DNA from: an uncultured Candidatus Saccharibacteria bacterium
Lineage (GTDB): Bacteria; Patescibacteriota; Saccharimonadia; Saccharimonadales; UBA10212
Direction of reading: 5' to 3'
Length of the DNA stretch: 64,000 nucleotides
NCBI GenBank assembly: GCA_964460855.1
Contig: CAYWQH010000005.1
Span: 2,504-66,503 of the forward strand
Shown in pieces: positions 8,264 through 58,723 of the stretch. Under the pieces are notes generated by a model. It was not told the DNA's origin, did not search any database, and saw nothing but the letters and a program-made list of their open reading frames with translations. How positions within the stretch are numbered: position 1 is the first letter of the stretch; the number at the start of each line of letters is the position of its first letter. The position numbers and the translations under genes are program-made.

Positions 8264-8271
8264 CGAACGAC

Positions 8272-18891: not shown

Positions 18892-18972
18892 AAATACCCT
18901 CCCCATTTGCTTAGTTTATTAAGCATAAGCATAAATTTGAATTGCTAAAGTTAGAATTGCTATTGACATAAA

Positions 18973-31952: not shown

Positions 31953-32729
31953 CTACGCGAGCGAAAACAGGTCTGAAGCGTTGCGGGACGTGTCGGAAGC
32001 CAGGGCTTCAAGAGTGGTCATGCGAAGATTAGCTAAAAATTCCGCCGTGCTCACAACATGCTTGGACTCGCATATCTTACCACGATAGGGTATAGGCGTC
32101 AAGAAGGGCGCGTCTGTTTCAAGGAGTAGTTTATTGGCCGGCACGGCTTTAGCGGCGTCTAATTGCTCTTCGTCTTTAGTAAAAGTCATAATCCCGTTTA
32201 ACCCAACGTAAAGATCCCTTTCGAGAATTTGGCCGAGTTCTTTCCGGTGGGCCGAAAAACTGTGTACTACCCCTGTAATTCTGGAACCTTTGTAACTATC
32301 GAAAATTTCCCAGAAATCGTCGAAAGCTTCGCGCACATGGAAAATAAATGGCAGGCCGGACTCCAGGCCGATTTCCAACTGCCGCCGAAACGCCTGCTTT
32401 TGGGCATCGCGGTCGGTGTTATCGTAATGATAGTCGAGGCCAATTTCGCCAACGGCTACGACTTTGGGCTGTTTTAATAAGTCCGCAAGCTTTGTATCAG
32501 CATTCTTATCCGTTAAATAATCGGCGCCGTCGTGCGGGTGGGCGCCCACCGCGGCCCAGGTTCCGGGCCTGTTATTAACAAAGTCAACAGCCCGCTGGCT
32601 ATCTGCCAAGCTGCAGCCGACACATATTACTTTTGTAACTCCAGCCTCTGAAGCATCTATTAAAACCTGGTCGGGATCCAGGCCGTAGTCGGCAAAATGT
32701 ATATGGGCGTGGGTATCGGCCAGCTGCAT
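31953..32729 (-). CDS. tatD: TatD-family metal-dependent hydrolase/DNase
   Basis: 258 aa. ADTHAHI start motif. EIGLDYH, HVREA and ETDAPFL blocks. Confidence 0.9.
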   Translation of the reverse strand: MQLADTHAHIHFADYGLDPDQVLIDASEAGVTKVICVGCSLADSQRAVDFVNNRPGTWAAVGAHPHDGADYLTDKNADTKLADLLKQPKVVAVGEIGLDYHYDNTDRDAQKQAFRRQLEIGLESGLPFIFHVREAFDDFWEIFDSYKGSRITGVVHSFSAHRKELGQILERDLYVGLNGIMTFTKDEEQLDAAKAVPANKLLLETDAPFLTPIPYRGKICESKHVVSTAEFLANLRMTTLEALASDTSRNASDLFSLA

Positions 32730-32730
32730 G

Positions 32731-34194
32731 TTATTTACTGGCGGGTGCGGCTGCTTCGGGGTGAATATTTGCTTTAGGAAAAAGCGGGCCTTTTAAGGGG
32801 CGGATAAAGCCGTCGCCAAATACGGCGCGGATTTCTTGAGCGGTAACCGGCATAAAGGGGTGCAGCATGTCGCTAATTTCCAACAAACAGCCGACCATGT
32901 AGGCTAAAACTTCTTTTAGGTGGTCGGGGTCGCTTTTGGCCAATTCCCATGGCTTTTCTTCGTCGATATATTGGTTTAAGCCCTTAACCTGCTCCCAAGC
33001 TTCGTCCAGGGCCCGGTCGAACCGGCAATCGGCGATTGCTTGCTGGAACTGGGCCAGGTCGTGGTTGGGCGCCGGCACGTCGCCGATTAGCCCGTCCTGG
33101 TATTTCTGGATCATAGCCACCGTGCGGCTAACGGCATTGCCTAATTGGTCGGCCAGTTCGTTGTTATAAGCAGCTTCGATACGGTCCCAGTTAAAATCGC
33201 CGTCTTCGTAAGATGGTATATGGCGCAGGAAGAAATAGCGGTAAACATCGGAATTGTATTTTTGCAGGATTTCGGCCGGCGTAACGTAATTGCCTTGGGA
33301 TTTGCTAAGCTTTTTACCGTTTAGCATTATGTGGCCGTGAACGTAAAGCAGTTTTGGTAATTGCAAACCAAGGCCAAGCAAAATGCCGGGCCAAATAGCG
33401 GCGTGGAAACGCAAAATATCTTTGCCGATAACCTGCACGTTGGCCGGCCAGAACATCTGGAATTCGTGGGTTTCGGGGTAGCCTAAAACCGTAATGTAGT
33501 TAAGCAGCGCTTCGAACCAGACATACATGACCTGGTCGGCATCGCCGGGTACCGGGATTCCCCAGCTGATTTTGGTTTTCGGGCGGCTGATGCTGATGTC
33601 TTCCAGCCCCGAATTAATCACCGACATTATTTCGTTGCGCCGGGTTTTGGGTACCACGCGGTACTTGCCGCTTTCGATGGCATGCTTGATTTGGTCGGTG
33701 TATTTGCTTAGGGCGAAAAAGTAGTTTTCTTCTTCGAGTTTTTCGTACTTGCGGTTGTGCAGTGGGCAGACACCATTATTGGCCTTAACGGTCGTTTCCG
33801 GGTAAAACTCTTCGCAGCCGGTGCAGTACCAGCCCACGTAAGTGCCTTTGTAAATATCTTTTTTGAGGTTTTGCCAAACTTGTTGGGAGCGCTTAATGTG
33901 CTGCTTGTCGGTAGTACGGACAAAGCGGTCGGCCGAAATATTTAAATCTTCTAAAAGCTTTTCGAAACTTTTAACCATTTTGTCGACGAATTGTTGGGGA
34001 GTCAGGTCCTGCTCTTTGGCTTTTTCGGCGATTTTGCCGCCGTGCTCGTCTGTTCCGGCCTGGAAAATAACCGGAGAGCCTTGCTGGCGCTGGTAGCGGG
34101 CAATGACGTCGGCCACGATCAAATCAATGGAGTTGCCAACATGCGGCTCGCTGTTGACATAAGGAATAGCCGTACAGATATAGAAATTACTCAT
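32731..34194 (-). CDS. metG: Methionine--tRNA ligase, minimal form
   Basis: 487 aa. HIGH-type PHVGNS, KLSKS, and zinc knuckle CTGCEEF...CPLH. No C-terminal tRNA-binding domain. Confidence 0.9.
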   Translation of the reverse strand: MSNFYICTAIPYVNSEPHVGNSIDLIVADVIARYQRQQGSPVIFQAGTDEHGGKIAEKAKEQDLTPQQFVDKMVKSFEKLLEDLNISADRFVRTTDKQHIKRSQQVWQNLKKDIYKGTYVGWYCTGCEEFYPETTVKANNGVCPLHNRKYEKLEEENYFFALSKYTDQIKHAIESGKYRVVPKTRRNEIMSVINSGLEDISISRPKTKISWGIPVPGDADQVMYVWFEALLNYITVLGYPETHEFQMFWPANVQVIGKDILRFHAAIWPGILLGLGLQLPKLLYVHGHIMLNGKKLSKSQGNYVTPAEILQKYNSDVYRYFFLRHIPSYEDGDFNWDRIEAAYNNELADQLGNAVSRTVAMIQKYQDGLIGDVPAPNHDLAQFQQAIADCRFDRALDEAWEQVKGLNQYIDEEKPWELAKSDPDHLKEVLAYMVGCLLEISDMLHPFMPVTAQEIRAVFGDGFIRPLKGPLFPKANIHPEAAAPASK

Positions 34195-34199
34195 CCGTT

Positions 34200-34426
34200 A
34201 TATCTTATCAAATCTGTTAGTTCGAGTCTTGGTAAACTTTCAGCTCTCAACTTTAATATCTCAACAAATTTTCAATTATCATTTATCACTTCACTATTGC
34301 ACAATTTATTTAACATTTGTCATTTGATATTTGAGTAAATGCAAAATGAAAAATAAATGAGCGATGATAGATGATAAATGAAAGCTGATTGCTTGCTGAA
34401 CGCTGACAGTTGATCGTTGAAAGCTT
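34200..34426. repeat. Intergenic repeat family, copy 2 (abuts the trehalase stop)
   Basis: caacaaattttcaattatca (34262-34281) is identical to 3316-3335. gcttgctgaacgctgacagttgatcgttgaaagctt (34391-34426) is the near-exact reverse complement of 38487-38524. Confidence 0.6.
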
Positions 34427-35652
34427 TAAAGCCAATCCTTTGCAAAACGTACAAATATTGCATTGGTCCAACCGAAACCGGTTTGGTTGGGGTATACACC
34501 TTCTACCGGTTCTTTCTTAGGATGGACGACATTATACTTTTCGATAAATTCGTGGTGCTTATTAAACCAGTCCAGGTTGGTGGCCAGCCACTTTTGGGCG
34601 ATACGGCGGGCGTCGCTTTCGTAGCCGTACTTTTTGAGCCCTTCGACCACCATAAACTGCAGCGGCGCCCAGCCATTAGGATAAGCCCATTGGATTGGTA
34701 TGGATGACGGCCAGCTGCTCATAATGCTGTTTTCGGTAGTTGATAAGCCGCCGCTATGTTCGAAACGCTTTAATTGCTTGGCCATCCGCTGGGCTTGCTG
34801 CGGCGTAGCCAGGCCGGCCCACATTGTATAATAGCCAGCCACCGAAGAAACCCGCCCCAAACGCTGCTTTTTGTAATTGTAGTCGTAATAAAAGCCACGG
34901 AGCTTGTCCCACATTAATTCGTACATGTTTTCGCGGCGTTTTTTTGCTACCTTGTGCCACTTAAGGGCCTCGGCGTCATTGCCTAAAATTTCGGCAGCTT
35001 TGGCAAAATCCATTTCGTATTTGTAAAGCAGCGCGTTTAAATCAACCGGTAAAAAGTCGAGGCATTTACGGCCAAACCGGTTGGTCATGTCCCAGCCGCT
35101 TTCGGCCTCGGCTAAATTATGAAGCATATTTATATCGTAATAGCGGCTCAGTCCCTTATAAACCCGCCTCCAGTTAGGGTGTTGGTCGAACATCCAAACA
35201 TGCTCATATTCTTGTTTAGCCAATTCGATCCGCTTGGCCAGCCATTTATTGCTAAAACCGCCCAAGTCGTAAACGTCAAAAATAAAGCTGGTTAAAAACG
35301 GCGGCTGGGAACGGCCGGTAAAGTATGTGCGGCTGGCGTTAGGAATTACATGGAAGCGCTCGAGCATGGCGCACAAATTATCGAGCATTCCGGCAACCAG
35401 CTCTTTATGCTCCTGGTCCAGCAAGCCCTGGATAATAAAATAGGTGTCCCAGTAATACTGTTCGTTAAAACCAAACGGCGCTGTTTCGTTATAGCCGGGC
35501 ACAAGATATTTATGCGGCAGCCCGACTAAAGTATGGTCGTCTTTGGGGTGGTAGCGCGTGAGCTTAGGCCAATACGCGTCTATATACTTTAAAGCCGGGT
35601 CTATATTTTGGGCGCTTAAAGCCTTATAGCTTTTGCTTTTTAGCAGTAACAT
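34426..35652 (-). CDS. Trehalase (glycoside hydrolase family 37)
   Basis: 408 aa. QYYWDTYF, GRSQPPFL, AESGWD, DLNALLY, YPNGWAPLQ, EKYNV, GFGWTNA. Confidence 0.85.
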   Translation of the reverse strand: MLLLKSKSYKALSAQNIDPALKYIDAYWPKLTRYHPKDDHTLVGLPHKYLVPGYNETAPFGFNEQYYWDTYFIIQGLLDQEHKELVAGMLDNLCAMLERFHVIPNASRTYFTGRSQPPFLTSFIFDVYDLGGFSNKWLAKRIELAKQEYEHVWMFDQHPNWRRVYKGLSRYYDINMLHNLAEAESGWDMTNRFGRKCLDFLPVDLNALLYKYEMDFAKAAEILGNDAEALKWHKVAKKRRENMYELMWDKLRGFYYDYNYKKQRLGRVSSVAGYYTMWAGLATPQQAQRMAKQLKRFEHSGGLSTTENSIMSSWPSSIPIQWAYPNGWAPLQFMVVEGLKKYGYESDARRIAQKWLATNLDWFNKHHEFIEKYNVVHPKKEPVEGVYPNQTGFGWTNAIFVRFAKDWL

Positions 35653-35882
35653 AAACCCTCGGTTATTTCTTTATGCTAGCTCTACTGTAAGGTCGGCCGG
35701 CACCTATCGTCAAGGACTTTAAAGCTTATGCTGATGACAAGTGCCACAGCCCGCAATATTTACACAGGTATGCTTTGAGCTTCGTGCCTTTTTGGTAGAG
35801 CAAGGTTGTGGCTGCCGCATCGGCCTGGCGCCGGGTATCAAATACTAGTTTGCCGTGGCAAGGCAGCTCCGTTTGGGGCTCC

Positions 35883-36056
35883 TCAGCCTTCAACGGATTT
35901 GCCAATTTTATATCCGAGCCATAAACCAGCTAAACTGCCGACGGCCGAAAATAAGATACTGGCCGCGCCCAAAAAGTTATGGTCGCCCCATAGCACTGGA
36001 ATATAGGCGCCAACTAAGCCGCCAACGGTTATGCCTATCCAGATAAGCATTTTCAT
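35883..36056 (-). CDS. Small membrane protein (57 aa), GlsB/YeaQ-like Gly-rich 2-TM
   Basis: Below the ORF-track cut-off. MKMLIWIGITVGGLVGAYIPVLWGDHNFLGAASILFSAVGSLAGLWLGYKIGKSVEG. Host-like composition. Confidence 0.5.
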   Translation of the reverse strand: MKMLIWIGITVGGLVGAYIPVLWGDHNFLGAASILFSAVGSLAGLWLGYKIGKSVEG

Positions 36057-36070
36057 AATGGCATTATAGC

Positions 36071-36499
36071 CTATATTGCTTTAGCTAACCTTTTGGCATG
36101 GGCAGCTAAATCGGCTTTAACAACTCTTGAAGAATCAATAATAACTACTTCTACCGCTCCACTAACCGCATTATGTCCAAAGGCACCTAAAGAATCATGG
36201 GTGCGCATAATTTGAGTTGGCGCTTCGCCTAAAGGCGAATCATCAATTTCCATATGCGGCGCTAAGCCGTCTTCAATATTCAGCCAAACTAACGGTGAGC
36301 CAACATACGTATATTCATTTGGTGCTTGATGGCCGTCGCGCGGAGAAACTATTTTCTGGATAAATTCTACTTTAACGAAAATCCCGAACAGTTTGCGGGC
36401 ATCATCTTCAAGTAATTCTTCAGGGGTTAAAAGCCGTTCGTCCTGGGTTTGCGGCAAGGCTGATTCGGTAGACTGTATTGATTCGATTATTTGGTTCAT
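36071..36499 (-). CDS. Hypothetical protein (AT-richer gene)
   Basis: Start trimmed to MNQIIESIQ (ATG at 36497-36499). The longer ORF-track version runs into the cassette D1 tail. Confidence 0.5.
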   Translation of the reverse strand: MNQIIESIQSTESALPQTQDERLLTPEELLEDDARKLFGIFVKVEFIQKIVSPRDGHQAPNEYTYVGSPLVWLNIEDGLAPHMEIDDSPLGEAPTQIMRTHDSLGAFGHNAVSGAVEVVIIDSSRVVKADLAAHAKRLAKAI

Positions 36500-36514
36500 A
36501 AACTTATTGGAGTT

Positions 36515-36918
36515 TTGGGAGGAAGTTTTTCGGGCGGGGGCCAGGCAATCGCTAAATCGCCCGGCCCCGTTGCCCATCCGCTACTGGCAGTGCACCGGCG
36601 TGACGTGCCAGCCGATGTCATCCAGGATGGCGTTGACATTGAGCACGTCGCCAAACAGGTCACGGACGTACTCCACGAACCTGTCGGCCTTGAAGTATTC
36701 GATTCCGCTGTGCTCTTTGTGGCCGTGGCCGTAGTCGAGCACATGGTATGCGACTTGCTCCAGGATCTGGTAAAGCTCCTGGTTGTCGCAGACCAGCTCG
36801 AGCTCTTGGCGGATGCCGCGAGCGGCATCGGTCCTGCCGAGCTTGACGGCGTCTTCCAGTTTGACGCCTAGCGTCACGGCTTGTTGTTGGTCACAAACCA
36901 TCAAGGGCTTCCTCCCAA
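36515..36918. repeat. 11-bp perfect inverted repeat bracketing cassette D1; the 3-prime arm is an anti-SD
   Basis: ttgggaggaag (36515-36525) and cttcctcccaa (36908-36918). On the minus-strand mRNA the 5-prime arm UUGGGAGGAAG contains the SD. The 3-prime arm lies just after the hairpin at 36537-36568. Confidence 0.75.
36581..36901 (-). CDS. Small acidic GC-rich ORF (106 aa), unknown function (cassette D1)
   Basis: GGGAGGA SD, ATG at 36899-36901. MVCDQQQAVTLGVKLEDAVKLGRTDAARGIRQELELV... No family recognised. Confidence 0.55.
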   Translation of the reverse strand: MVCDQQQAVTLGVKLEDAVKLGRTDAARGIRQELELVCDNQELYQILEQVAYHVLDYGHGHKEHSGIEYFKADRFVEYVRDLFGDVLNVNAILDDIGWHVTPVHCQ

Positions 36919-37013
36919 GTTGTAATGTGCTCCGTCCACGTTATTGCGGACAGAACCGGGTACTCAAATCTCTTCATTTCCCCGCCAAGAGATTTGTATT
37001 TAAATCCACTGGC

Positions 37014-37196
37014 CAGAAAACGAAAACCGGACTGTTGTAGCCCGGTTCTCTGTTTTTCTAATTTTTGATTGGCTTGGCGATATTTTTCGGAACTACAACT
37101 AAAGTGCTCGCCTAAGGAGCACAGTATTGATAATTCCAATCTTTTCCCGCGTAAAAGCCATGTATTTTTTATAACGCAGCGGGGCTCTCGGGTCAA
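37014..37196 (-). promoter_or_regulatory. Promoter plus about 150-nt AT-rich leader/sRNA ending in an intrinsic terminator, upstream of D1
   Basis: Minus strand: TTGACC (37191-37196), 17 bp, TATAAA (37168-37173). Hairpin aaccgg/ccggtt (37025-37047) followed by UUCGUUUUCU. The upstream segment aGTTGTAG can pair with the terminator loop CTACAAC. Confidence 0.4.
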
Positions 37197-37245
37197 TAGT
37201 AAAGTTACAAAACGTTAGTGTTTTGTGTATAAGTCTGAGTTAATT

Positions 37246-37678
37246 TCCGCAAGTACCCGGGCTGCCAGCGGCGCGGTCGTCCATGACCGCGCCGCCAGTT
37301 GGCAGTTCAGCGAGCAGCTGTGAAGGGCACGAGCGTCTCGGGCTGCGACAGCGCGAGTAGCAGGTAGTACGGGTTCACGCCGTCTTCGTACTGGTCCTTG
37401 ATGGACTGCAGCTCGTCGAGCTCGCGGCACGCCTGCGGGTAGCGGTGCATGTCGTCGGTAACGACGTGCACGTGCGGCGACTCAGCGGCCGTCTTGGTGA
37501 ACATCGCGAACTGGTCGATCTCCCGCCGCGTGGCGGTGATCTGGTCTTCCAGCCTCGACACGAAGTCCTCGCGAGCGAAATTTCCGGTTCGCGGGTCCTC
37601 AGCATCGAGCAGGTCAGCCAGCTGCTGATGCGCGTCCTGCGTCACTGGTTCTCCTTCTGTTCGAGGGGTACTTGCGGA
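37246..37678. repeat. 13-bp perfect inverted repeat bracketing cassette D2
   Basis: tccgcaagtaccc (37246-37258) and gggtacttgcgga (37666-37678) are exact reverse complements. The 5-prime arm lies about 10 nt upstream of the SD on the minus-strand mRNA. Confidence 0.8.
37307..37645 (-). CDS. Small acidic GC-rich ORF (112 aa), unknown function (cassette D2)
   Basis: GAAGGAGA SD, GTG start at 37643-37645. MTQDAHQQLADLLDAEDPRTGNFAREDF... Followed by an 11-bp GC hairpin (37268-37295). Confidence 0.55.
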   Translation of the reverse strand: MTQDAHQQLADLLDAEDPRTGNFAREDFVSRLEDQITATRREIDQFAMFTKTAAESPHVHVVTDDMHRYPQACRELDELQSIKDQYEDGVNPYYLLLALSQPETLVPFTAAR

Positions 37679-37728
37679 GTACCGGTAGCAAACTCCCCTT
37701 GCTGGGGAGTGCGACCATGTTGCAAATT

Positions 37729-37756
37729 ACTATATCATACTAATGTTTTATGTCAA
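37729..37756 (-). promoter_or_regulatory. sigma70-like promoter of cassette D2
   Basis: Minus strand: TTGACA (37751-37756), 16 bp, TATAGT (37729-37734). Confidence 0.5.
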
Positions 37757-37812
37757 TCAAGGTGCTTACGCTACAACCGGACAGTTATAATTAAATAAAA
37801 GGAGGTAGATTT

Positions 37813-38487
37813 ATGAAGGTAGGCGTACTAGGAACGGGAATTGTAGGCCGGACGCTGGCCGCTAAACTGGCCCAAGAAGGCAAGCAAGTTATGATTGGCG
37901 GGCGCGACGTCCAAACCTCCAAAAAGTCGGCTACCCGCGATGGCCAAACGCTGGAGCAATGGCTCATCGAAAACCCGGATGTGCAGTTAGGTACGTTTAA
38001 ACAAACTGCCGAATTCGGCGAATTATTATTTAATGCCACCAATGGCATGCATTCCCTGGACGCCCTAAAACTGGCCGGCCCGGAAAGCATTGACGATAAA
38101 ATTCTAATCGATGTAGCCAACCCGCTTGATTTTAGCCACGGCATGCCGCCTTCGCTGGGCATCGTTAATACCAGTTCTTTAGGCGAAGAGGTTCAAAAAT
38201 TGCTGCCGCGCGCCCGGGTGGTAAAAGCTTTAAATACGGTTACGGCGGCTTTGATGGTCAACCCTATGGCGGCAGCGGCCGGCGACCACCACTTAATTAT
38301 TTGCGGCGATGACGACGGCGCCAAAAAATCAGTCAGCAAACACCTTAAAGAATGGTTTGGCTGGCAAAACGTTATTGATTTGGGCGACATCACCAATGCC
38401 CGGGGCAGCGAAATGTACCTGCCATTGTGGGTGCGGCTCATGGGAGTCACTGGCACCCCGCTATTCAACATAAAGATCGTTAAATAA
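37813..38487 (+). CDS. NAD(P)-binding oxidoreductase (NADPH-dependent F420 reductase-like / P5C-reductase fold)
   Basis: 224 aa. N-terminal Rossmann motif MKVGVLGTGIVGRTLA. AGGAGG SD. Confidence 0.6.
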   Translation: MKVGVLGTGIVGRTLAAKLAQEGKQVMIGGRDVQTSKKSATRDGQTLEQWLIENPDVQLGTFKQTAEFGELLFNATNGMHSLDALKLAGPESIDDKILIDVANPLDFSHGMPPSLGIVNTSSLGEEVQKLLPRARVVKALNTVTAALMVNPMAAAAGDHHLIICGDDDGAKKSVSKHLKEWFGWQNVIDLGDITNARGSEMYLPLWVRLMGVTGTPLFNIKIVK

Positions 38488-38675
38488 AGCTTGCAACGAT
38501 CAACTATCAGCGATCAAAAAGCTTCCAATTTTACAATTTTAAAATTCCAACTTTCATTCAATTACCAATAGTTGAATATCCAAACTAGTTAATTAGATAA
38601 TTGTTTTACAGAAAATTATTTGTAAATTGAAAATTGAAAATTTGCTGAGATTTGAAAGTTTAGCGCTGAAAGCTA
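38487..38675. repeat. Intergenic repeat family, copy 3
   Basis: aagcttgcaacgatcaactatcagcgatcaaaaagctt (38487-38524). AT-rich ttcaatt/ttgaaa words. gaaagtttagcgctgaaagcta sits at the far end. Confidence 0.55.
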
Positions 38676-39845
38676 TTTTACGGGTTTGAGCTGGCGGGGG
38701 TCATCGTATTTACGCGTATCGTAATGTTTGTGCGGCATGTGCTCGCGGAGCTTGACTAATATCATGCCCACACCCAGCCAGTAGGCGACTACAAAGGCAA
38801 AGAAATCAACTACCGGAATGAGATACAGCAATATCAGCAATATCGAACCAGCCAGCATGATCAAGATAGGGTTATGCTGGCCGTGCCATAGCCGGCGGCC
38901 TAAATAGTAAGCGCTGAAGATTCCGCTTAGCAGTGAGATGGCCAGCCAGCCAAACAACAGCAGCAATGCCAGTGGAATTCCAACTACCGTTATAAACAAC
39001 AGTACCAGTAAAAATGGCATTATTATGGCCGCCAGCAAGCCGGTTAAAAAGGCCCGCCAAAAAGATGTTATAGCTACGTTAGTAGTATCATGGATGACTT
39101 TCGGAAACAGCGCCACCAATACCAGGGCCATTACCAGCATGGCCAGCGCCAGATAAAACGCGAACCAGGCGGCGCTATGCCACAGCCCGAAATTATTGCC
39201 GCTGCGCTGCTGCGGCTCGGATTTAATGGTTTGGCCGCCAACTACCGCGCCGGGCAAAATGCTGGCGTCATTGTTGCTGGTATACGCCAGGTTGCCGCCA
39301 ACTTTGGCATTCGATCCGAGCGTTAAGTTTTGAATGCGGGCCCGTACATTACGGCCAATTGAATTATGGACAGTCAGCGTGTTGCCGGCTGCCAGTAAAT
39401 CGCGGCCGACGCTGCCATTTAAAGTTATATCCCGGCCAGCCAGGCTTAAATCGCCATCCACTTTACTTTTACCGTCGCTGGTAATGCTTTGCCCAGCGAC
39501 CGATACGTTATGGCTAACCGAACCGTTAAGCGAAATAGTTTGCCCGGCTACCCGGATGTCGCCGTCAACCGTACCGCTGATGTTAATAGTTTGGCCGGCG
39601 CAGATAACGTCTCCGTGCACCGTACCGCTGATATTTATATTTTGCCCGACACAGTAAATATCGCCGTTTACTTCGCCGGCAACGTCGATGTCATGGCCGG
39701 CCATCCATAGTGAACTGTCGATTTTTTCGCCGGCTGCCACACTAGCCGAATTGCCGGATTTAATACTCTGGGCGTGGGCCGCCCCTACTACTAAACAAAA
39801 TAGCCCCACCGTTATCACTGAGACACTCAATAATAAACGACGCAC
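38673..39845 (-). CDS. Membrane protein with N-terminal bactofilin-like beta-helix repeats and a polytopic C-terminal half
   Basis: 390 aa. Signal peptide. Repeats such as GDIYCVGQNINISGTVHGDVICAGQTINISGTVDGDIRVAGQTISLNGSV. Then 5-6 TMs. Confidence 0.55.
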   Translation of the reverse strand: MRRLLLSVSVITVGLFCLVVGAAHAQSIKSGNSASVAAGEKIDSSLWMAGHDIDVAGEVNGDIYCVGQNINISGTVHGDVICAGQTINISGTVDGDIRVAGQTISLNGSVSHNVSVAGQSITSDGKSKVDGDLSLAGRDITLNGSVGRDLLAAGNTLTVHNSIGRNVRARIQNLTLGSNAKVGGNLAYTSNNDASILPGAVVGGQTIKSEPQQRSGNNFGLWHSAAWFAFYLALAMLVMALVLVALFPKVIHDTTNVAITSFWRAFLTGLLAAIIMPFLLVLLFITVVGIPLALLLLFGWLAISLLSGIFSAYYLGRRLWHGQHNPILIMLAGSILLILLYLIPVVDFFAFVVAYWLGVGMILVKLREHMPHKHYDTRKYDDPRQLKPVK

Positions 39846-39911
39846 GCGACACCTCCTGCCCTAATTTGCTATTATTATAACTTTCTTTTCTGGGAACCGG
39901 CAACTAAGAGT

Positions 39912-40625
39912 TTAGCAAGCGTAGTCGCGGTCGGTTGCCCCAATATATTGCGTCAGCCAGGTGCCGCCGCCGGTAATGTCGTGGTCCCGGCAAAATGCCT
40001 TGGCAGTATCTAAGCTTGGTGAGCCGGTGGCCGCCCAGTTAGGCAAATAGTTTTGCCAGCCACCGGTGATTTTTCGCCATTGCTCGGGCGTGCTGTATAT
40101 GCCAATCGTATAGGCTTTTGCATAATCACGTAAAGCATCGATTTCACCGGACAGGCTTTGCTGGTTGTTAGCAAAACTATCGCTCCAGCTATTGACCGTT
40201 TCGACGTCCAGCCACCAGGCCGCCGCGTAAACCGCTTGGCCCAAGGCATAATCGGCGGCATATTTGCCGGCGTTATAACCGTAATTATAAGCCAGGCAAT
40301 TGCCGTCATTTCCGCCGCAATTTTTGGGCCAAAACCGGTATTTGCGGGCAATGTCGTTGCCCGGGTAACCGGTATTTACGTAGAGTGAGAGGTTTTTAAA
40401 ATGGGCGGCTTCGGCGGCCAGGCAGTTATTAGCCGTGTAGCCTTTGCCGCCATTAACGCCAACGACGCCGAAAGCTATTTTATCGGGAATATGGGCTTGG
40501 CAATTAGGCCAGGAAATATCGGCGCCGGCAGCGCCGGAGTTAAGAATACTTTGGGCGGAAGCTGCCCGTCCAACCACTACGGCAAAGATTGATGCGGCAG
40601 CCAGCAAACCAACAAATTTTTTCAT
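39912..40625 (-). CDS. Secreted glycoside-hydrolase-like protein (GH25/DUF1906-like)
   Basis: 237 aa. Signal peptide. GADISWPNC...FGVVGVNGG...WWLDVE pattern. Confidence 0.45.
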   Translation of the reverse strand: MKKFVGLLAAASIFAVVVGRAASAQSILNSGAAGADISWPNCQAHIPDKIAFGVVGVNGGKGYTANNCLAAEAAHFKNLSLYVNTGYPGNDIARKYRFWPKNCGGNDGNCLAYNYGYNAGKYAADYALGQAVYAAAWWLDVETVNSWSDSFANNQQSLSGEIDALRDYAKAYTIGIYSTPEQWRKITGGWQNYLPNWAATGSPSLDTAKAFCRDHDITGGGTWLTQYIGATDRDYAC

Positions 40626-41641
40626 CAGGCCGATTTAATATCTAGCCAGCCGCGTTCAACGCAATCGCGCAGCCCCCAGGCCGGCATAGTTTCGGTGCGG
40701 TAAGCCCAGTAGTACCAACTGTGGGCCCGGCTGAAAGCTTCTAACTGGGCCCGGCCGTATTCTTGCATGGCATTATGCTCGCCGGCTTCGGCCAGGCCTT
40801 TAGTGTCGCCGGGCAAAGCTATGCTCCACTCACCTACCATGACCGGTTTGGTGGCTTCCATATTATCCAGCTGGTGGGTCCATTCGTCGCGGGCCTTGTG
40901 CAAATGGCCGGCTAAATCCAGGGCTTTATCGGTAGTCGAAAATACCTGGTACATATGGGTGTCTAAAACTACATTTTCGTATTGGTCCTTACTCAACACG
41001 GCGTGCCAATCGTATGGCCGGAAACTATCGCTTATAACTACCTCGACATCCGGCCGGGCATGCTTGCGTACGGCGGCATAACCTTTTTCGTAAAAATTAG
41101 TTAGCACCGAAAATTCGACCGTCCAGTGCGGCTCGTTAATAAGCTCGATGCCGGCCAAGTTAGGCCGTAAACCGTAACGCTGGGCCAGCAGCTCTATAAA
41201 AGCCAGTGTTTTATCGATATTTTTAGGCTGCGGCCATTCGATGGGCCCGGTTTTGCCGCTATGGTCCCAGCCATTTTGCGAGCCGGGAGCGGCATGCACG
41301 TCCAGCACTACCTGCATGCCGTGTTTGGCGGCCTGGTCAAATGTAAAGTCAATATAATCGGCGCATTCGGCATAGGGCTCTTCGCCGCCCAACGCCCAGT
41401 AACCTATGGGCAACCTGATGGCCTGGACCCCGGCTCCGGCCAGCCAAGTAAAATCGGCGGCTGTGATAAAAGTGTCGCGGTGCGGTTTTATCCGCTGCAG
41501 CAAATTATTGCCCAGCTCCAGGCAAAATGAGTATTCGTCGATGGCTTTTAAACCATGGAATAAACTGGGCGTTATCCAGCGCTCTAAAACCAGCCACCCG
41601 CCAAAATTTACGCCGCGGCGGGCAGTTGCTTTATTGGACAA
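40625..41641 (-). CDS. Glycoside hydrolase family 5 (beta-glucanase/glucosidase-like)
   Basis: 338 aa. GVNFGGWLVLERW. Acid/base ELINEP. Nucleophile context MVGEWS. Confidence 0.8.
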   Translation of the reverse strand: MSNKATARRGVNFGGWLVLERWITPSLFHGLKAIDEYSFCLELGNNLLQRIKPHRDTFITAADFTWLAGAGVQAIRLPIGYWALGGEEPYAECADYIDFTFDQAAKHGMQVVLDVHAAPGSQNGWDHSGKTGPIEWPQPKNIDKTLAFIELLAQRYGLRPNLAGIELINEPHWTVEFSVLTNFYEKGYAAVRKHARPDVEVVISDSFRPYDWHAVLSKDQYENVVLDTHMYQVFSTTDKALDLAGHLHKARDEWTHQLDNMEATKPVMVGEWSIALPGDTKGLAEAGEHNAMQEYGRAQLEAFSRAHSWYYWAYRTETMPAWGLRDCVERGWLDIKSA

Positions 41642-42092
41642 TAATCGTTCCCCGCTGCGTCGGGTCTTCGTGGTTGTGGTAGCCCCAGGTGCCTTTGTTG
41701 TTTACAGTGAAGGTTTTACTTTGGCCGGAGCTAACAATGCCAACATTAAGTTCGGTATTATCGGTATGAGTTGGGTGCGGGTCAGAATTAAAACTCAGTT
41801 CCCCGGAAGTATTTTTTATAGTTATAGTGGTACCGGCTTTTACGGTTAACGTGGACGGGCTGAAGCTTGAGCCATCGTAAGTAATCGTGCTGCCGGATGA
41901 CGTTTGGTCGGTATTGCTTCCGCTTTGGGTGCTGTTAGTAGCGGGCGTGGTTTGGGTAGTCGATTGGCTGGTAGAAGTTGTTGGAGTAGTTGAGCTGCTG
42001 GAATTATTGCTTTTTTTAGTTAAGGCTAAAACTCCGGCGACAACTAAAACGATAGCGATTATTCCGGTTACGATAATTCCATTCCGACTCAT
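41631..42092 (-). CDS. Membrane-anchored cupredoxin-like protein
   Basis: Start trimmed to MSRNGIIV, 9 nt after AGGAGG. TM, Ser/Thr-rich linker, beta-rich domain with HPTH...HNHE. Confidence 0.45.
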   Translation of the reverse strand: MSRNGIIVTGIIAIVLVVAGVLALTKKSNNSSSSTTPTTSTSQSTTQTTPATNSTQSGSNTDQTSSGSTITYDGSSFSPSTLTVKAGTTITIKNTSGELSFNSDPHPTHTDNTELNVGIVSSGQSKTFTVNNKGTWGYHNHEDPTQRGTIIVQ

Positions 42093-42193
42093 CAAGAACA
42101 TCCTCCTCAGATTTATACTTCCATTATATACGCCGCTATGTTGCGCGGCGACAGGAAAGGCGCATGCACCGTCCGGCCGCAAGTGTCGCCAAC

Positions 42194-42308
42194 AAAAAAG
42201 GGCCCTTGCGGGTCCTTCTTTGTTCGCTGCTACTCCCTTGCGGGAGGAGCCGCTAACCACCTCACGGTGATTACTTACCAGTCTATGCCCAGCCACCGGA
42301 CTTGTCAA
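42194..42308 (-). ncRNA. Promoter plus about 80-nt hairpin-rich RNA with intrinsic terminator (sRNA or attenuator leader of the cupredoxin gene)
   Basis: Minus strand: TTGACA (42303-42308), 17 bp, TAGACT (42280-42285). Two GCAA-tetraloop hairpins (gctcctccc-GCAA-gggagtagc; ggaccc-GCAA-gggccc), the second followed by a U6 run. Confidence 0.35.
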
Positions 42309-42458
42309 ACGTATTATTATATTATATAAAAGCTAGTGTTTATACTTGTGGATAACTTGCATTCTTATATCTTTAATTGTCTAATATGCTTATGCTACAG
42401 CCTGTGGACAATTTTTTAAGCCTCAGCTAGGCCGGACTGAGGACGGGCGGTGCGTGGC

Positions 42459-42698
42459 TTAAACCTCAAACTTCTCTATGTGATCATTTAAGTCTTTGAG
42501 AAACTCTTTAGCCTGCGCCTTGGTCATGGCCACGCGCGTAACCATATTCTGCTGGTCGGTACCGGGCATAGCCTGGGCAAAGTTAAACGTAACGACGTGT
42601 TCGTTGCTGCCGATTAAATAAGTATCAATATAAAATACCGGCACTTTGCTGGCATCCAAACTAAAATTAAGCTGCTTTTTATTGCCTTGATCGGCCAT
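42459..42698 (-). CDS. Small protein, DUF3467-like
   Basis: 79 aa. Pattern FYIDTYLIGSNEHVVTFNFAQ...VTRVAMTKAQAKEFLKDLNDHIEKFE. Confidence 0.4.
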   Translation of the reverse strand: MADQGNKKQLNFSLDASKVPVFYIDTYLIGSNEHVVTFNFAQAMPGTDQQNMVTRVAMTKAQAKEFLKDLNDHIEKFEV

Positions 42699-42728
42699 AA
42701 TTTCTCCGCCTTATGTTAGGTATTATAC

Positions 42729-43196
42729 CTAACCGTTAGCGGGCTGCTGGCCTTCGACCTTTCCCTGGTTAGCGACGGTTTCTACAACAATGTCCACGAC
42801 TTGGCGCGGCACGTAATCGCTTTTGATAATGTACTTTAGCGCTCCGAGTTTAAGGGATTTTTGAATGTCTTCGTCGTCAGCTAAATTAGATAGCATAATT
42901 ACCGGGATATTTTTAAGGTCGGGGTCGTTTTTCATGTCTTGCAGCATTTCGATGCCGTTTTTGCGCGGCATCATAACGTCCAGCAACACTACGTCCGGCT
43001 TAAAGCTGCGGCATTTTTCGAGGCCTTCGACGCCGTCGACCGCCAAGTCTATTTCGTACTTATGGAAGCGGAATATAGTAGCGTAGAGTTCCTGGATCAT
43101 CAGGTCGTCTTCTACCAGCAAAATCTTTCGTATTGGCGAAGAGGCGACAGGATTGGAAGGTGTGTCTTGTGGTGGCATATTGTTATTATTCCACAC
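42729..43196 (-). CDS. Single-domain response regulator (CheY-like receiver)
   Basis: 155 aa. LLVEDD, DVVLLDVMMP and a conserved Lys region. Confidence 0.85.
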   Translation of the reverse strand: MWNNNNMPPQDTPSNPVASSPIRKILLVEDDLMIQELYATIFRFHKYEIDLAVDGVEGLEKCRSFKPDVVLLDVMMPRKNGIEMLQDMKNDPDLKNIPVIMLSNLADDEDIQKSLKLGALKYIIKSDYVPRQVVDIVVETVANQGKVEGQQPANG

Positions 43197-43205
43197 TTGG
43201 CTGGC

Positions 43206-50783: not shown

Positions 50784-51185
50784 TGGTGGAGCTGGCGAGT
50801 TTGAGCCCGCGTCCGCTTGGTAACTTCTCCGATGCCTACAGGTTTATACCGTTTAGGTGTTTCTTTGCCGAACAAACGGTGAACGGTCAAAAGCAAGTCC
50901 AGCGCAGTCCTAAAGTCTTATCCGACTAGAACGGACCGTTCCAGTACGGGGCAACCAAATAAATATGGCACCAGCGAAAGCCTATTTGGCGTCAGCGTGC
51001 TGATGGCAGCTTAAATAATTAAGCTACAGCTGCGGCTTGGCGCCCGGCGAGAACAGAGTTCACGCTAGCAACAAAGTCGCTAACTTTGGTTTTGGCAATT
51101 AAAGCCTGTGCACCAGCTAACGTGTAGTGCAAACCGACCTGCCATGCGGAGATGTTAAGGTCCAACCGTCAAATTAGTCAGCCCC
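50784..51185 (-). ncRNA. ssrA: tmRNA (SsrA)
   Basis: 5-prime GGGGCUGA. 3-prime GGACGCGGGCUCAAACUCGCCAGCUCCACCA (T-arm plus acceptor with the G3-U pair). Internal tag frame 51019..51096: GCC resume codon to UAA, AKTKVSDFVASVNSVLAGRQAAAVA. Confidence 0.9.
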
Positions 51186-58093: not shown

Positions 58094-58723
58094 CTAACGC
58101 CATTTAATTGAATCAAGCAATTGTGTGTAGATAGGATAGTATTTCATATCTATCCCGTTATCGGTGGCGGGGGCATTATAAATAATTTGAATTACTTGGT
58201 TTGGCCCATAATTTACTTCCACATTCCTGCTTCCGCCGTCTTCTGAAAAACTACCGTTTTTAAAAGCTTCTCTGCCGTCGACTCGAATATCCTGAACATC
58301 CCTAAACGAATGTGTAGTATCGGTGGACTCAAATATTTTGTCTTTGGCGTAATTAACATTTCCCGAATCGTAAGCAATGACAATTTCGGGCTCGTTAATA
58401 TTGGGCGTAGTTTTGTCATGTTCCGGAGCGTGAAGACGGTAAAGAACGTTATTTTTGTAACGATAATCAGTTTCGTTTACTAAACTCCAGTTCTTAGGAA
58501 AATTAAATGTCATAGGAATACTGGAATCCACGAATTGCTTTTGGCCATTAACTATTTTTACCGCAATTTGAGGCTGTTGTGATGAGCTGGCAATAGCATT
58601 GTTCAAAGAATTATCGGTTTTTTGGTTAGTCTGGCGAACATAATAACCAACGCTGCACAGTACAAAAACAATCAAAAGGATGAATACGCCTTCGACGGCG
58701 CTGAACCCCTTTTGGCGTTTCAT
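58094..58723 (-). CDS. Type IV pilin-like protein (prepilin-type N-terminus)
   Basis: 209 aa. MKRQKGF/SAVEGVFILLIVFVL, with Glu at +5 after the predicted cleavage site. Confidence 0.6.
   Translation of the reverse strand: MKRQKGFSAVEGVFILLIVFVLCSVGYYVRQTNQKTDNSLNNAIASSSQQPQIAVKIVNGQKQFVDSSIPMTFNFPKNWSLVNETDYRYKNNVLYRLHAPEHDKTTPNINEPEIVIAYDSGNVNYAKDKIFESTDTTHSFRDVQDIRVDGREAFKNGSFSEDGGSRNVEVNYGPNQVIQIIYNAPATDNGIDMKYYPIYTQLLDSIKWR

What the first reader, a model, noticed from the sequence alone, without database searches (positions are those of the whole stretch)
37246..37756. Cassette D2: GTG-initiated 112-aa acidic ORF with tetraloop hairpins in the leader and a 13-bp end-pairing repeat
A TTGACA-16-TATAGT promoter on the minus strand drives a roughly 77-nt leader. 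The leader carries two small GCAA/AGCAA-loop hairpins, cucccc-agcaa-ggggag and gguac-uccgcaa-guacc. Next come GAAGGAGA, GTG, the ORF, and an 11-bp GC hairpin (37268-37295).

The leader segment uccgcaaguaccc pairs perfectly with ggguacuugcgga (plus-strand coordinates 37666-37678 / 37246-37258). The same leader nucleotides can therefore form either the local hairpin or the long-range helix, which gives a built-in two-state switch.

D1 and D2 are adjacent and co-oriented, separated by an AT-rich leader with its own promoter and terminator. They could be a two-component pair.
Basis: partly seen in the sequence, partly recalled or inferred. Interest (0 to 1): 0.7.

Follow-up and report, generated by a model that had tools for sequence, protein, structure and literature searches.

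The report
Orphan gene with end-paired mRNA
D2 is a small stand-alone gene of unknown function in a Saccharibacteria-type genome; the front and back of its message carry 13 perfectly matching bases that should zip together, and other small G+C-rich genes in this genome and its relatives show the same layout.

Summary
These are the TTGACA-16-TATAGT promoter (with an extended -10 TG), two leader hairpins, GAAGGAGA-GTG, the 112-aa acidic ORF, the 11-bp GC hairpin and the perfect 13-nt complement 37666-37678/37246-37258.

The complement is not chance: 0 of 2000 dinucleotide shuffles reach it. It belongs to a pattern. Across this window and five related Candidatus Saccharimonadales loci, 6 of 9 GC3-rich small cassettes have a perfect 5'/3' flank complement of at least 10 nt, against 7 of 168 ordinary ORFs (Fisher p=3e-6).

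D2's protein is a true orphan, matching only itself among about 15 billion proteins. Its composition is foreign for this genome (GC3 0.85 against about 0.55-0.6).

Best reading: an autonomous accessory gene whose mRNA is closed by a 5'/3'-UTR helix, as in B. subtilis hbs. The likely effect is on mRNA lifetime.

The "two-state switch" holds geometrically but is very lopsided (-24.3 against -5.6 kcal/mol), and ribosome-binding-site access hardly changes.

The "D1-D2 pair" idea is not supported. The D1 locus, with its conserved leader, occurs in five relatives without any D2, and D2 lies at the edge of a 5.2-kb accessory block.

The function of the protein remains unknown.

The parts
37729..37756 (-). 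Sigma-70-type promoter of D2: -35 TTGACA (37756-37751), 16-nt spacer, TG at 37737-37736 (extended -10), -10 TATAGT (37734-37729)
   Evidence: It matches 11 of 12 consensus positions and is the best site in 35600-38700. The transcription start itself was not mapped.
37646..37722 (-). Predicted 5' UTR of about 77 nt, with the 5' end inferred. It contains hairpin 1 (37692-37710), hairpin 2 (37667-37683) and the SD GAAGGAGA (37650-37657).
   Evidence: The leader alone folds to -27.1 kcal/mol, with hairpin 1 at -12.5 and hairpin 2 at -5.6. The 5' end is almost fully paired from nt 3.
37666..37678 (-). 5' arm UCCGCAAGUACCC of the long-range helix. It overlaps the loop and the 3' half of hairpin 2.
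   Evidence: (I5), (0 of 2000 shuffles). Pair probabilities are 0.91-1.0.
37307..37645 (-). D2 ORF: GTG start, 112 aa, acidic (pI 4.53), predicted all-helical, no signal peptide evident, orphan
   Evidence: The ORF is listed. GC1/GC2/GC3 are 0.70/0.37/0.85, against 0.38-0.61 GC3 for the window's ordinary (native-composition) genes. It matches only itself in 5.8 billion clusters and in an exhaustive phmmer of 1.84 billion representatives. AF2 gives 4 helices at pLDDT 64. Foldseek finds no match with E below 0.4.
37262..37305 (-). 3' GC-rich stem-loop: an 11-bp perfect core at 37268-37295, extendable by CUGCCA/UGGCAG. No U tract follows it.
   Evidence: (I11). It was not scored as an intrinsic terminator.
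37246..37258 (-). 3' arm GGGUACUUGCGGA of the long-range helix. It starts 48 nt after the stop codon, directly after the GC stem-loop, at the 3' edge of the GC-rich segment.
37015..37196 (-). Context, not part of D2. This is the promoter (TTGACC-17-TATAAA, 37196-37168) and conserved structured leader of the D1-type locus, ending in the intrinsic terminator AACCGGGC-loop-GUCCGGUU plus a U run (37050-37022).
   Evidence: The element is conserved in L084, L090, L092, L096 and L097.
36515..36918 (-). Context. The neighbouring cassette D1 (ORF 36581-36904) has its own 11-nt end pairing: the SD UUGGGAGGAAG (36908-36918) pairs with the 3' anti-SD-like CUUCCUCCCAA (36515-36525).
   Evidence: I10; 19 of 2000 shuffles; 2 of 1000 shuffles.

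Best explanation
D2 is an autonomous, single-gene accessory cassette in a Candidatus Saccharimonadales (Saccharibacteria, CPR) genome.

**Proposed layout and action**
- A near-consensus extended -10 promoter makes an mRNA with a tightly folded 5' end.
- A strong SD and a GUG start direct synthesis of a 112-aa acidic, helical, cytoplasmic orphan protein. Its codon composition (GC3 0.85) is foreign to this roughly 50% G+C genome.
- Transcription runs through a GC stem-loop that lacks a U tract, and then through a 13-nt segment perfectly complementary to the 5' UTR.
- Once that segment is made, it should invade the small second leader hairpin, using the hairpin's 7-nt loop as a toehold. This forms a 13-bp helix of -24 kcal/mol that ties the two UTRs together, so the mRNA becomes a closed loop.

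**Proposed function**
- By analogy with the 14-bp 5'/3'-UTR interaction of B. subtilis hbs mRNA, the closure mainly shields both ends from ribonucleases and so sets mRNA lifetime. It is not an equilibrium riboswitch.
- The same layout recurs in other GC3-rich small cassettes of this genome and its relatives: GC3-rich small ORF, then a GC stem-loop, then a 3' arm 40-56 nt after the stop that pairs with the leader. D2 is therefore one member of a recurring gene design, not half of a D1-D2 pair.

**Shown:** the anatomy, the non-randomness, the recurrence, the orphan status, the thermodynamic preference, and the absence of D2 from relatives.

**Inferred:** the transcript ends, formation of the helix in vivo, the stabilising effect, and a foreign (high-G+C donor) origin. 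The biochemical role of the protein is unknown. A small acidic accessory protein such as an immunity or anti-defence factor is only a guess.
For: **Anatomy.**

**Non-randomness of the 13-nt pair.**
- 0 of 2000 dinucleotide shuffles reach it.
- Ordinary ORFs of the window reach 6-8 nt.

**Thermodynamics.**
- The whole-transcript MFE uses the helix, with z = -5.4.
- Pair probabilities are 0.91-1.0.
- MFE is -222.6 kcal/mol, against -203.7 when the 3' arm is blocked.
- The duplex is -24.3 and the local hairpin -5.6 kcal/mol.
- The ORF body alone is not unusually structured (z = -1.2), so the signal comes from the UTRs.

**Recurrence of the layout.**
- Cassette C has a 14-nt pair (0 of 2000 shuffles) and D1 an 11-nt pair.
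- L092 has 10 nt, L096 13 nt, and L093 has 12 and 10 nt.
- The 3' arm always begins 40-56 nt after the stop, just past a GC hairpin.
- 6 of 9 cassettes against 7 of 168 ordinary ORFs have a complement of at least 10 nt: Fisher p = 3e-6, Mann-Whitney p = 1.4e-5.

**Coding and foreign composition.** GC1/GC2/GC3 are 0.70/0.37/0.85, against about 0.55-0.6 GC3 for neighbouring native-composition genes.

**Orphan status.** No match beyond itself.

**Organism.** MetRS is 66-73% identical to proteins named Candidatus Saccharimonadales.

**Accessory position.** Synteny with L084 shows a 5.2-kb block ending in D2 inserted between DUF3467 and the D1-type promoter.

**Experimental precedent.**
- hbs has a 14-nt 5'/3'-UTR interaction that restricts RNase Y cleavage, shown by compensatory mutations (PMC5737220).
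- Long-range pairing occurs in vivo in bacteria (PMC12697547).
Against: - The 3' end of the transcript is unknown. The 3' arm lies downstream of the GC stem-loop. If that stem-loop terminates transcription, as U-less terminators do in some high-G+C bacteria, the arm would not be in the mRNA and the helix could not form.
- D2 has no sequence variants or homologues, so there is no covariation test for its own helix.
- Two of the five cassettes in the window (A and B) lack end pairing, so it is not obligatory for this kind of gene.
- Whether these organisms have RNase Y or RNase J type decay was not examined.
- Predicted SD accessibility is unchanged by closure, so no translational effect can be claimed.
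- A foreign origin is inferred from composition only; no donor homologue was found. The neighbouring D1-type genes stay GC3-rich across six genomes, so high GC3 can be maintained in situ and need not mean recent transfer.
Confidence: 0.5

Rival explanations
1. This is a hok-like kinetic or processing switch. The full-length, end-paired mRNA would be a stable and poorly translated store. 3' trimming would remove the 3' arm, let the leader refold into the local hairpin, and activate translation.
For: - The two structures are mutually exclusive, and the closed form dominates only when the 3' arm is present.
- The hok tac/fbi system works this way (PMC9841398).
- In the neighbouring D1-type cassettes the 3' arm really does cover the SD: 11 nt in the window, 9 nt in L090, 8 nt in L097.
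Against: - In D2 the 5' arm ends 20 nt before the GTG and does not include the SD.
- Predicted unpaired probabilities of the SD and start codon are about the same with and without the 3' arm.
- D2 is a 112-aa acidic soluble protein, not a small hydrophobic toxin.
- There is no plus-strand promoter-like site for an antisense RNA over the leader.
Confidence: 0.15
2. The 5'/3' helix, stacked on the adjacent GC stem-loop, is a double-strand-specific RNase processing stalk of RNase III type, like the stems flanking rRNAs. It would mature or destroy the mRNA, so the effect could be destabilising rather than stabilising.
For: - The helix closes the whole coding unit and abuts a 16-17-bp stem.
- The same geometry recurs in many cassettes.
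- For icaR, 5'/3' pairing promotes RNase III cleavage (PMC3868564).
Against: - A helix of 10-14 bp is shorter than the roughly two helical turns that classical RNase III substrates have (established knowledge).
- No cleavage data exist.
- Whether the genome encodes RNase III was not examined.
Confidence: 0.15
3. This is a DNA-level element. The 13-bp inverted repeats would be recombination sites for inverting the SD-ORF-hairpin segment relative to its promoter (phase variation), or a scar of insertion or inverted duplication with no RNA role.
For: Perfect inverted repeats bracket exactly the promoterless part of the cassette. The 3' arm sits at the 3' boundary of the GC-rich segment.
Against: - The arms have a different sequence in every cassette, so there is no common recombinase site.
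- In the D1-type loci the arms are the SD and an anti-SD-like tract whose sequence differs between genomes while complementarity is kept, which fits an RNA-level role.
- No recombinase, integrase or transposase domain was found among the genes scanned from 31953 to 45119; the response-regulator ORF at about 42786-43139 was identified only by tblastn to L084's Response_reg gene.
- There are no target-site duplications next to the arms (read).
- Three independent assemblies show the same orientation.
Confidence: 0.07
4. D1 and D2 form a two-component pair, either toxin-antitoxin or interacting partners.
For: They are adjacent, co-oriented, similar in size, both acidic, and both orphan cassettes with the same compositional signature.
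Against: - Each has its own promoter, and an intrinsic terminator lies between them.
- Neither hits a TA or defence family.
- The D1-type locus occurs without D2 in L084, L090, L092, L096 and L097.
- D2 belongs to an accessory block absent from L084.
Confidence: 0.05
5. D2 is a plain horizontally acquired orphan gene, and its 13-nt complement is a coincidence or a neutral by-product.
For: D2 has no homologues, so its own helix has no comparative support. Two cassettes (A and B) work without any such pairing.
Against: - 0 of 2000 shuffles reach 13 nt.
- The same feature sits at the same relative position in many unrelated cassettes and is strongly enriched over ordinary genes.
Confidence: 0.08

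Closest known systems
B. subtilis hbs mRNA 5'/3'-UTR long-range interaction (Braun, Durand and Condon 2017, PMC5737220)
   Same: - Both have a perfectly complementary segment in the 5' UTR, next to a leader hairpin, and in the 3' UTR of a short monocistronic mRNA for a small protein: 14 nt and about -19 kcal/mol in hbs, 13 nt and -24 kcal/mol in D2.
- Both have a strong SD.
- In hbs the pairing limits endonuclease access to the leader and also affects 3' decay.
   Different: - In hbs the 3' element lies just upstream of the terminator. In D2 it lies just downstream of a U-less GC stem-loop, so its presence in the transcript is unproven.
- hbs is a conserved housekeeping gene, whereas D2 is an orphan of foreign composition.
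- There are no experimental data for D2.
S. aureus icaR mRNA 3'-UTR/5'-UTR pairing (PMC3868564) and anti-SD-like long-range repression (PMC12697547)
   Same: In both, base pairing between the 3' UTR and 5' UTR of one mRNA controls expression. The neighbouring D1-type cassettes match this closely, because a pyrimidine-rich CCUCC-containing 3' arm pairs with the SD.
   Different: D2's arms are not an SD and anti-SD pair. The SD stays outside the helix, and its predicted accessibility is unchanged.
hok mRNA tac/fbi end pairing in type I toxin-antitoxin systems (PMC9841398)
   Same: Both have 5'-3' end pairing that locks the full-length mRNA. In both, an alternative local structure in the leader can form only when the 3' partner is absent.
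   Different: D2 has no small hydrophobic toxin, no antisense RNA promoter, and no SD sequestration.
Phage 'morons': independent transcription units with their own promoter and terminator and deviant base composition (Hendrix/Juhala concept; from my own knowledge)
   Same: D2 has its own strong promoter, a 3' stem-loop, a composition unlike its surroundings, a small accessory ORF, and was inserted between unrelated genes.
   Different: D2 is not in a prophage. Its neighbours are chromosomal housekeeping and accessory genes, and it matches nothing in 50,697 phage genomes or in IMG/VR.
Integron gene cassettes
   Same: Both are small, unrelated ORFs in co-oriented tandem, each followed by an imperfect or perfect palindromic element. 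Cassettes are often orphans.
   Different: - Each D-type cassette has its own promoter.
- The arms and hairpins share no core site such as GTTRRRY.
- No IntI or attI is present.

Membership tests
5'/3'-UTR long-range interaction mRNAs (hbs type) | Complementary segments of at least about 10 nt in the 5' UTR and the 3' UTR of the same gene, beyond chance | tested here: met
   13 nt perfect, with 0 of 2000 shuffles reaching it. Ordinary ORFs of the window reach 6-8 nt.
5'/3'-UTR long-range interaction mRNAs (hbs type) | Both segments lie within one transcript, with the 3' segment upstream of the actual 3' end | not testable with these tools
   The 3' arm follows a GC stem-loop that has no U tract. 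The TSS and the 3' end are unmapped.
5'/3'-UTR long-range interaction mRNAs (hbs type) | The helix is thermodynamically favoured in the full-length RNA | tested here: met
   Pair probabilities are 0.91-1.0, and blocking the helix costs 18.9 kcal/mol. The MFE structure uses it.
5'/3'-UTR long-range interaction mRNAs (hbs type) | The pairing alters RNase cleavage or half-life in vivo, shown by compensatory mutants | not testable with these tools
   This needs experiments.
3'-UTR anti-SD repression (icaR type) | The 3' arm pairs with the Shine-Dalgarno sequence | tested here: not met
   D2's 5' arm ends 20 nt before the GTG, and SD accessibility is unchanged. The feature is met for neighbour D1 (I10).
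Type I toxin-antitoxin (hok-like) | A small hydrophobic toxin peptide | tested here: not met
   D2 is 112 aa, with pI 4.53 and GRAVY -0.60.
Type I toxin-antitoxin (hok-like) | An antisense RNA gene overlapping the leader | tested here: not met
   There is no plus-strand promoter-like site between 37640 and 37760. This is only a consensus scan, so the evidence is weak.
Type II toxin-antitoxin or two-component pair (D1+D2) | The two genes co-occur and are co-transcribed across genomes | tested here: not met
   Five relatives have the D1-type locus but no D2. A promoter and a terminator lie between the two genes.
Type II toxin-antitoxin or two-component pair (D1+D2) | Recognisable toxin or antitoxin domains | tested here: not met
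   No hits in Pfam, PHROGs, PADLOC or NCBIfam.
Phage moron | Own promoter and 3' stem-loop, with a composition unlike the flanks | tested here: met
Phage moron | Embedded in a prophage or phage genome | tested here: not met
   The neighbours are an F420-type oxidoreductase, a bactofilin-like protein, GH5, trehalase and MetRS. There are no phage or IMG/VR matches.
Integron cassette | An attC with a conserved core and inverse core, plus an IntI/attI platform, and a promoterless cassette | tested here: not met
   The arms differ in every cassette. D2 has its own promoter. No recombinase domain was found among the genes scanned from 31953 to 45119.
Invertible DNA segment (inverton) | Both orientations are present in reads, and an invertase is encoded | tested here: inconclusive
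   Three assemblies show one orientation, and no invertase is nearby. Raw reads were not available.
Retron (a1/a2 repeats flanking msr-msd) | An adjacent reverse transcriptase, with repeats flanking a non-coding RNA | tested here: not met
   The repeats flank a bona fide coding ORF with GC3 periodicity. No RT domain appears among the neighbours.
Known RNA families (Rfam 15) | A match at the gathering score | tested here: not met
   The only hit in the window is the tmRNA. In 36400-37850 there are only chance-level hits with E of at least 0.3.

The most novel reading that the evidence does not exclude
Saccharimonadales genomes may carry a previously undescribed class of small, fast-evolving or exchangeable, GC3-rich orphan genes built as "closed-loop mRNA" cassettes: a GC3-rich ORF, a U-less GC stem-loop, and a 3' arm that pairs with the leader.

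Some of these sit on a conserved platform that has a structured leader containing a terminator. The D1-type locus is an example, found in six genomes with mostly non-alignable ORFs.

Their composition resembles that of Actinobacteria and persists even where the locus is inherited. That could reflect selection tied to the epibiont's high-G+C hosts, for example host-directed effectors or repeated capture of host or host-phage transcription units, rather than simple recent transfer.
Probability: 0.15. Interest if true: 0.8.

Novelty: new variant of a known kind. Interest (0 to 1): 0.5.

Why it matters

Here the same device appears as a recurring design feature of one compositionally distinct class of orphan accessory genes. 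The organisms belong to an uncultivated, host-dependent lineage (Saccharibacteria/CPR) whose gene regulation is almost unstudied.

If confirmed, it would give three things:
- a simple sequence signature for finding such genes;
- a natural set of compensatory variants for studying mRNA end pairing;
- a handle on a pool of lineage-specific proteins that may mediate interaction with high-G+C hosts.

For D2 alone the practical message is more modest. It is a real, probably well-expressed orphan gene with a likely stabilising mRNA closure, and it is not a partner of D1.

Tried and rejected
**Homology searches for D2**
- Searched the 5.8-billion-cluster protein database, exhaustive phmmer on 1.84 billion representatives, GTDB genomes, phage genomes, plasmids, IMG/VR and PDB sequences.
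- Also searched Pfam, PHROGs, PADLOC and NCBIfam.
- Only D2 itself was found. The single extra phmmer hit, P0003, is a repetitive 764-aa protein at E = 2.6e-4 and was judged spurious.

**Structure**
- The single-sequence AF2 model has pLDDT 64.
- Foldseek against the PDB gave only generic helical bundles, with the best E at 0.42, so it is not informative.

**Known RNA families**
- Nothing was found in the D region.

**Looking for relatives of the locus**
- The F420-type oxidoreductase neighbour retrieved only matches of 57% identity or less from unrelated phyla, so it was useless for synteny.
- A metagenome scan with the downstream 142/180-aa protein found nothing.
- A metagenome scan with the leader-hairpin DNA pattern hit only high-G+C coding sequences (apparently nitrile-hydratase-like, judged by eye).
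- Relatives were finally obtained through MetRS homologues.

**Tests between cassettes**
- D2's promoter and leader do not align with the D1-type platform.
- The cassette proteins show no significant similarity to each other, apart from L090 and L097 at 57% identity.
- A resemblance I saw by eye between D1 and the L096 ORF failed a Smith-Waterman shuffle test (p = 0.41).
- A short D2/L084 motif reached an uncorrected p of 0.004 and was treated as chance.

**Ideas rejected**
- Transposon or MITE: no target-site duplications and cassette-specific arms.
- Integron, retron and DGR: no long direct repeats.
- Assembly chimera: three independent assemblies are identical.
- Non-coding RNA: clear GC3 periodicity and an SD.

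**Literature**
- Searches for the SRA runs and for GC-rich cassettes in Saccharibacteria found nothing relevant.
Full report
**Observation**

- The promoter is TTGACA (37756-37751), a 16-nt spacer, and TATAGT (37734-37729), preceded by TG. It scores 11 of 12 and is the best promoter-like site in the 3-kb surroundings.
- The leader is about 77 nt. It contains ACUCCCC-AGCAA-GGGGAGU (37710-37692) and GGUAC-UCCGCAA-GUACC (37683-37667).
- The SD GAAGGAGA is at 37657-37650 and the GTG at 37645. The ORF of 112 aa ends at 37307.
- An 11-bp perfect GC stem sits at 37268-37295 and can be extended to 37262-37305.
- The 13-nt perfect complement is 37666-37678 / 37246-37258.
- The loops are 5 to 7 nt long, so "tetraloop" is a loose label.
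- The protein is acidic, with pI 4.53.
- The DNA is real. Three independent run assemblies (Logan SRR9179560, SRR9179561 and SRR9179563) are 100% identical over it.

**Is the end pairing more than chance?**

- Dinucleotide shuffles of the 5' flank never reach 13 nt (0 of 2000; mean 6.8, maximum 12).
- In a greedy set of 72 window ORFs, the longest perfect complement between 130-nt 5' and 3' flanks is 6-8 nt for nearly all. D2's own ORF was displaced from that set by an overlapping antisense ORF.
- The outliers are GC-rich cassettes: C with 14 nt and D1 with 11 nt, and D2 with 13 nt when tested separately.

**What the ORF is**

- D2 has GC1/GC2/GC3 of 0.70/0.37/0.85. The window's native-composition genes have GC3 of about 0.4-0.6.
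- That periodicity, together with the SD, indicates a genuine coding sequence with a composition foreign to this roughly 50% G+C genome.
- It is a true orphan. It matches only itself among 5.8 billion clusters and in an exhaustive phmmer of 1.84 billion representatives. The one extra hit is a spurious repetitive protein.
- Nothing was found in GTDB genomes, phages, plasmids, IMG/VR or PDB sequences.
- Nothing was found in Pfam, PHROGs, PADLOC or NCBIfam.
- A single-sequence AF2 model gives four helices at pLDDT 64. It has no significant structural neighbour.

**Organism and context**

- MetRS in the window is 66-73% identical to proteins named Candidatus Saccharimonadales.
- The window holds at least five GC-rich islands with GC3 of 0.78-0.90. 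Each has its own promoter-like site read by eye, near-consensus except D1's TTGACC-17-TATAAA; only D2's was scored by the promoter scan.
  - Cassette A is at 1620-2030.
  - Cassette B holds the ORF at 8015-8263.
  - Cassette C holds the ORFs at 8485-8730 and 8760-9044.
  - D1 and D2 are the other two.
- These islands are set between housekeeping genes such as Obg, a LysM-CHAP hydrolase, FtsA, AlaRS, trehalase and MetRS.
- The closest relative recovered is L084, with MetRS 73% identical. Its gene order is HK, RR, DUF3467, then a promoter, leader and GC-rich ORF, then a 180-aa protein, a Gly-zipper protein, a Zn-ribbon protein, trehalase and MetRS.
- The window has the same order, except for a 5.2-kb block between DUF3467 and the D1 promoter. 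That block holds a cupredoxin-like protein, GH5, a 237-aa protein, a bactofilin-like protein, an F420-type oxidoreductase and D2.
- D2 is therefore the terminal gene of an accessory insertion.

**The neighbour D1 is a separate, conserved locus**

- The AT-rich spacer between D2 and D1 is a conserved element. It consists of a promoter, an RNA of about 120 nt, and an invariant intrinsic terminator AACCGG(G/A)C-loop-GUCCGGUU followed by a U run (window 37050-37022).
- The same element occurs in L084, L090, L092, L096 and L097.
- In every case it is followed by three things:
  - a GC3-rich ORF of 58-167 aa;
  - a GC hairpin;
  - a pyrimidine-rich 3' arm complementary to a purine-rich or SD segment upstream of the ORF, of 11, 7, 9, 10, 13 and 8 nt respectively.
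- Only the L090 and L097 ORFs are demonstrably homologous, at 57% identity. The rest do not align.
- None of these genomes has a D2 homologue.

**A recurring design**

- A further relative, L093, has two tandem GC3-rich cassettes with 12-nt and 10-nt end pairing.
- Pooling the window and six related loci, 6 of 9 GC-rich cassettes have a perfect 5'/3' flank complement of at least 10 nt, against 7 of 168 ordinary ORFs (Fisher p = 3e-6).
- One of those seven ordinary ORFs is itself the L093 GC-rich gene.
- One of the six cassette cases, B's 10-nt match, lies in its promoter spacer and I discount it.
- The 3' arm always starts 40-56 nt after the stop, immediately past the GC hairpin.
- Cassettes A and B lack the feature.

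**Mechanism for D2**

- The full predicted transcript folds with z = -5.4 and uses the 13-bp helix.
- The helix has pair probabilities of 0.91-1.0 and contributes 18.9 kcal/mol. As an isolated duplex it is -24.3 kcal/mol, while the competing local hairpin is -5.6.
- The two structures share nucleotides, so they exclude each other, but the balance is one-sided.
  - The local hairpin can exist only before the 3' arm is transcribed or after it is removed.
  - Its 7-nt loop would serve as a toehold for invasion by the 3' arm. This step is inference.
- Closure leaves the predicted SD and start accessibility essentially unchanged.
- The ORF body alone is not unusually structured (z = -1.2).
- The nearest experimentally characterised analogue is the 14-nt 5'/3'-UTR interaction of B. 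subtilis hbs mRNA. Compensatory mutants showed that it limits RNase Y cleavage in the leader and affects 3' decay (PMC5737220).
- I therefore favour mRNA-lifetime control as the function of the helix.
- The neighbouring D1-type cassettes instead resemble icaR (PMC3868564) and the anti-SD long-range repression described in PMC12697547, because their 3' arm covers the SD.
- The main weakness is that the 3' arm lies downstream of the GC stem-loop. That stem-loop has no U tract and was not scored as a terminator, but the true 3' end is unknown.

**Rivals**

- A hok-like processing switch (PMC9841398) fits the geometry. It does not fit the protein, the SD position, or the lack of an antisense promoter.
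- An RNase III-type processing stalk remains possible.
- A DNA-level role, such as an inverton or an insertion scar, is disfavoured for these reasons:
  - The arms are cassette-specific.
  - The D1-type arms follow an SD/anti-SD logic.
  - There are no nearby recombinases and no target-site duplications.
  - Three assemblies show a single orientation.
- The D1-D2 pair idea is contradicted by comparative genomics.

**Origin**

- The codon composition looks like that of high-G+C bacteria, which are the known hosts of cultivated Saccharibacteria (my own knowledge).
- No donor homologue was found, however.
- The D1-type genes stay GC3-rich across six genomes, so high GC3 may be maintained in place and need not mark recent transfer.
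- This question is unresolved, and it is the most interesting open point.

**Verdict**

- D2 is a new, orphan member of a recurring cassette design whose defining RNA feature, 5'/3'-UTR pairing, is a known kind of mechanism seen here in a new and systematic setting.
- The protein's function is unknown.

Noticed in passing
window 37015-37196 (minus strand); also L084:4950-5125, L090:4545-4720, L092:5985-6155, L096:7020-7185, L097 around 3409: A conserved promoter and structured leader RNA of about 120 nt, ending in an invariant intrinsic terminator (AACCGGRC-loop-GUCCGGUU plus a U run). A 6-7-nt upstream segment is complementary to the terminator loop in the five genomes read (GUUGUA/UACAAC; GCUGUAG/CUACAGC; GCUGUUG/CAACAGC); L097's upstream segment was not read. 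This suggests a possible pseudoknotted attenuator. There is no Rfam family for it.
   Followed up: partly
window 36515-36525 / 36908-36918 (cassette D1): The 11-nt perfect pairing of D1's Shine-Dalgarno region with a CCUCC-containing 3' tract resembles icaR. Equivalent but differently sequenced purine/pyrimidine arms occur in five relatives (7-13 nt).
   Followed up: partly
window 8330-9100 (+), cassette C: The promoter is TTGACA-17-TATAAT. The leader has a hairpin with 23-nt arms (8411-8460). Two small membrane proteins follow (81 and 94 aa, GC3 0.84 and 0.78), then a GC hairpin. A 14-nt perfect 5'/3' pair joins 8393-8406 and 9086-9099 (0 of 2000 shuffles).
   Followed up: partly
window 1620-2030 (+) cassette A; 7950-8300 (+) cassette B: Two more GC-rich islands with consensus-like promoters and GC hairpins, but no end pairing. 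A holds only a 38-aa ORF followed by about 100 nt of GC-rich sequence and a canonical terminator, so it may be an RNA gene rather than a protein gene.
   Followed up: no
window 36581-36904 (D1 ORF) and 8760-9044 (C2 ORF): These coding regions fold far better than dinucleotide shuffles (z of about -4.5). D2's ORF (z = -1.2) and eight segments taken from ordinary genes of the window (z from -2.3 to +2.0) do not.
   Followed up: no
L093:4650-5507 and 5677-6081 (NCBI GCA_900299395.1, OMJO01000007.1): A tandem pair of GC3-rich genes (GC3 0.83 and 0.84) in another Saccharimonadales genome. Each has a GC hairpin followed by a 3' arm complementary to its own leader (12 nt and 10 nt). This mirrors the D2-D1 arrangement.
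   Followed up: partly
window 37813-38487 (+): The best matches to the F420-dependent NADP-oxidoreductase-like gene next to D2 are only 45-57% identical and come from Anaerolineae, Myxococcota, Actinomycetota and other phyla. It lies in the 5.2-kb block that L084 lacks, so it was probably acquired horizontally.
   Followed up: partly
window 37770-37786: Just upstream of D2's -35, the sequence ACUGUCCGGUUGUAGC combines two pieces of the D1 leader element (GUCCGGUU and GUUGUAG). This could be chance, a shared protein-binding half-site, or a remnant of the platform.
   Followed up: no
window 50784-51185 (-): Rfam finds a tmRNA here (78.9 bits), but ARAGORN reported no tmRNA or tRNA anywhere in the window.
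   Followed up: no
window 17605-18906 (-) and 58094-58723 (-): These genes have unusually low G+C (0.38-0.39; GC3 0.25 and 0.39). They are compositional islands in the opposite direction to the GC-rich cassettes.
   Followed up: no
window 36071-36577 (-) and L084:5675-6217: A conserved protein of unknown function (SPRDGH motif, about 32% identity over the aligned stretch, no Pfam hit) lies immediately downstream of the D1-type cassette in the window and in L084, followed by Gly-zipper and Zn-ribbon mini-proteins. Its real start in the window is probably the ATG at 36499, 15 nt after D1's 3' arm.
   Followed up: partly
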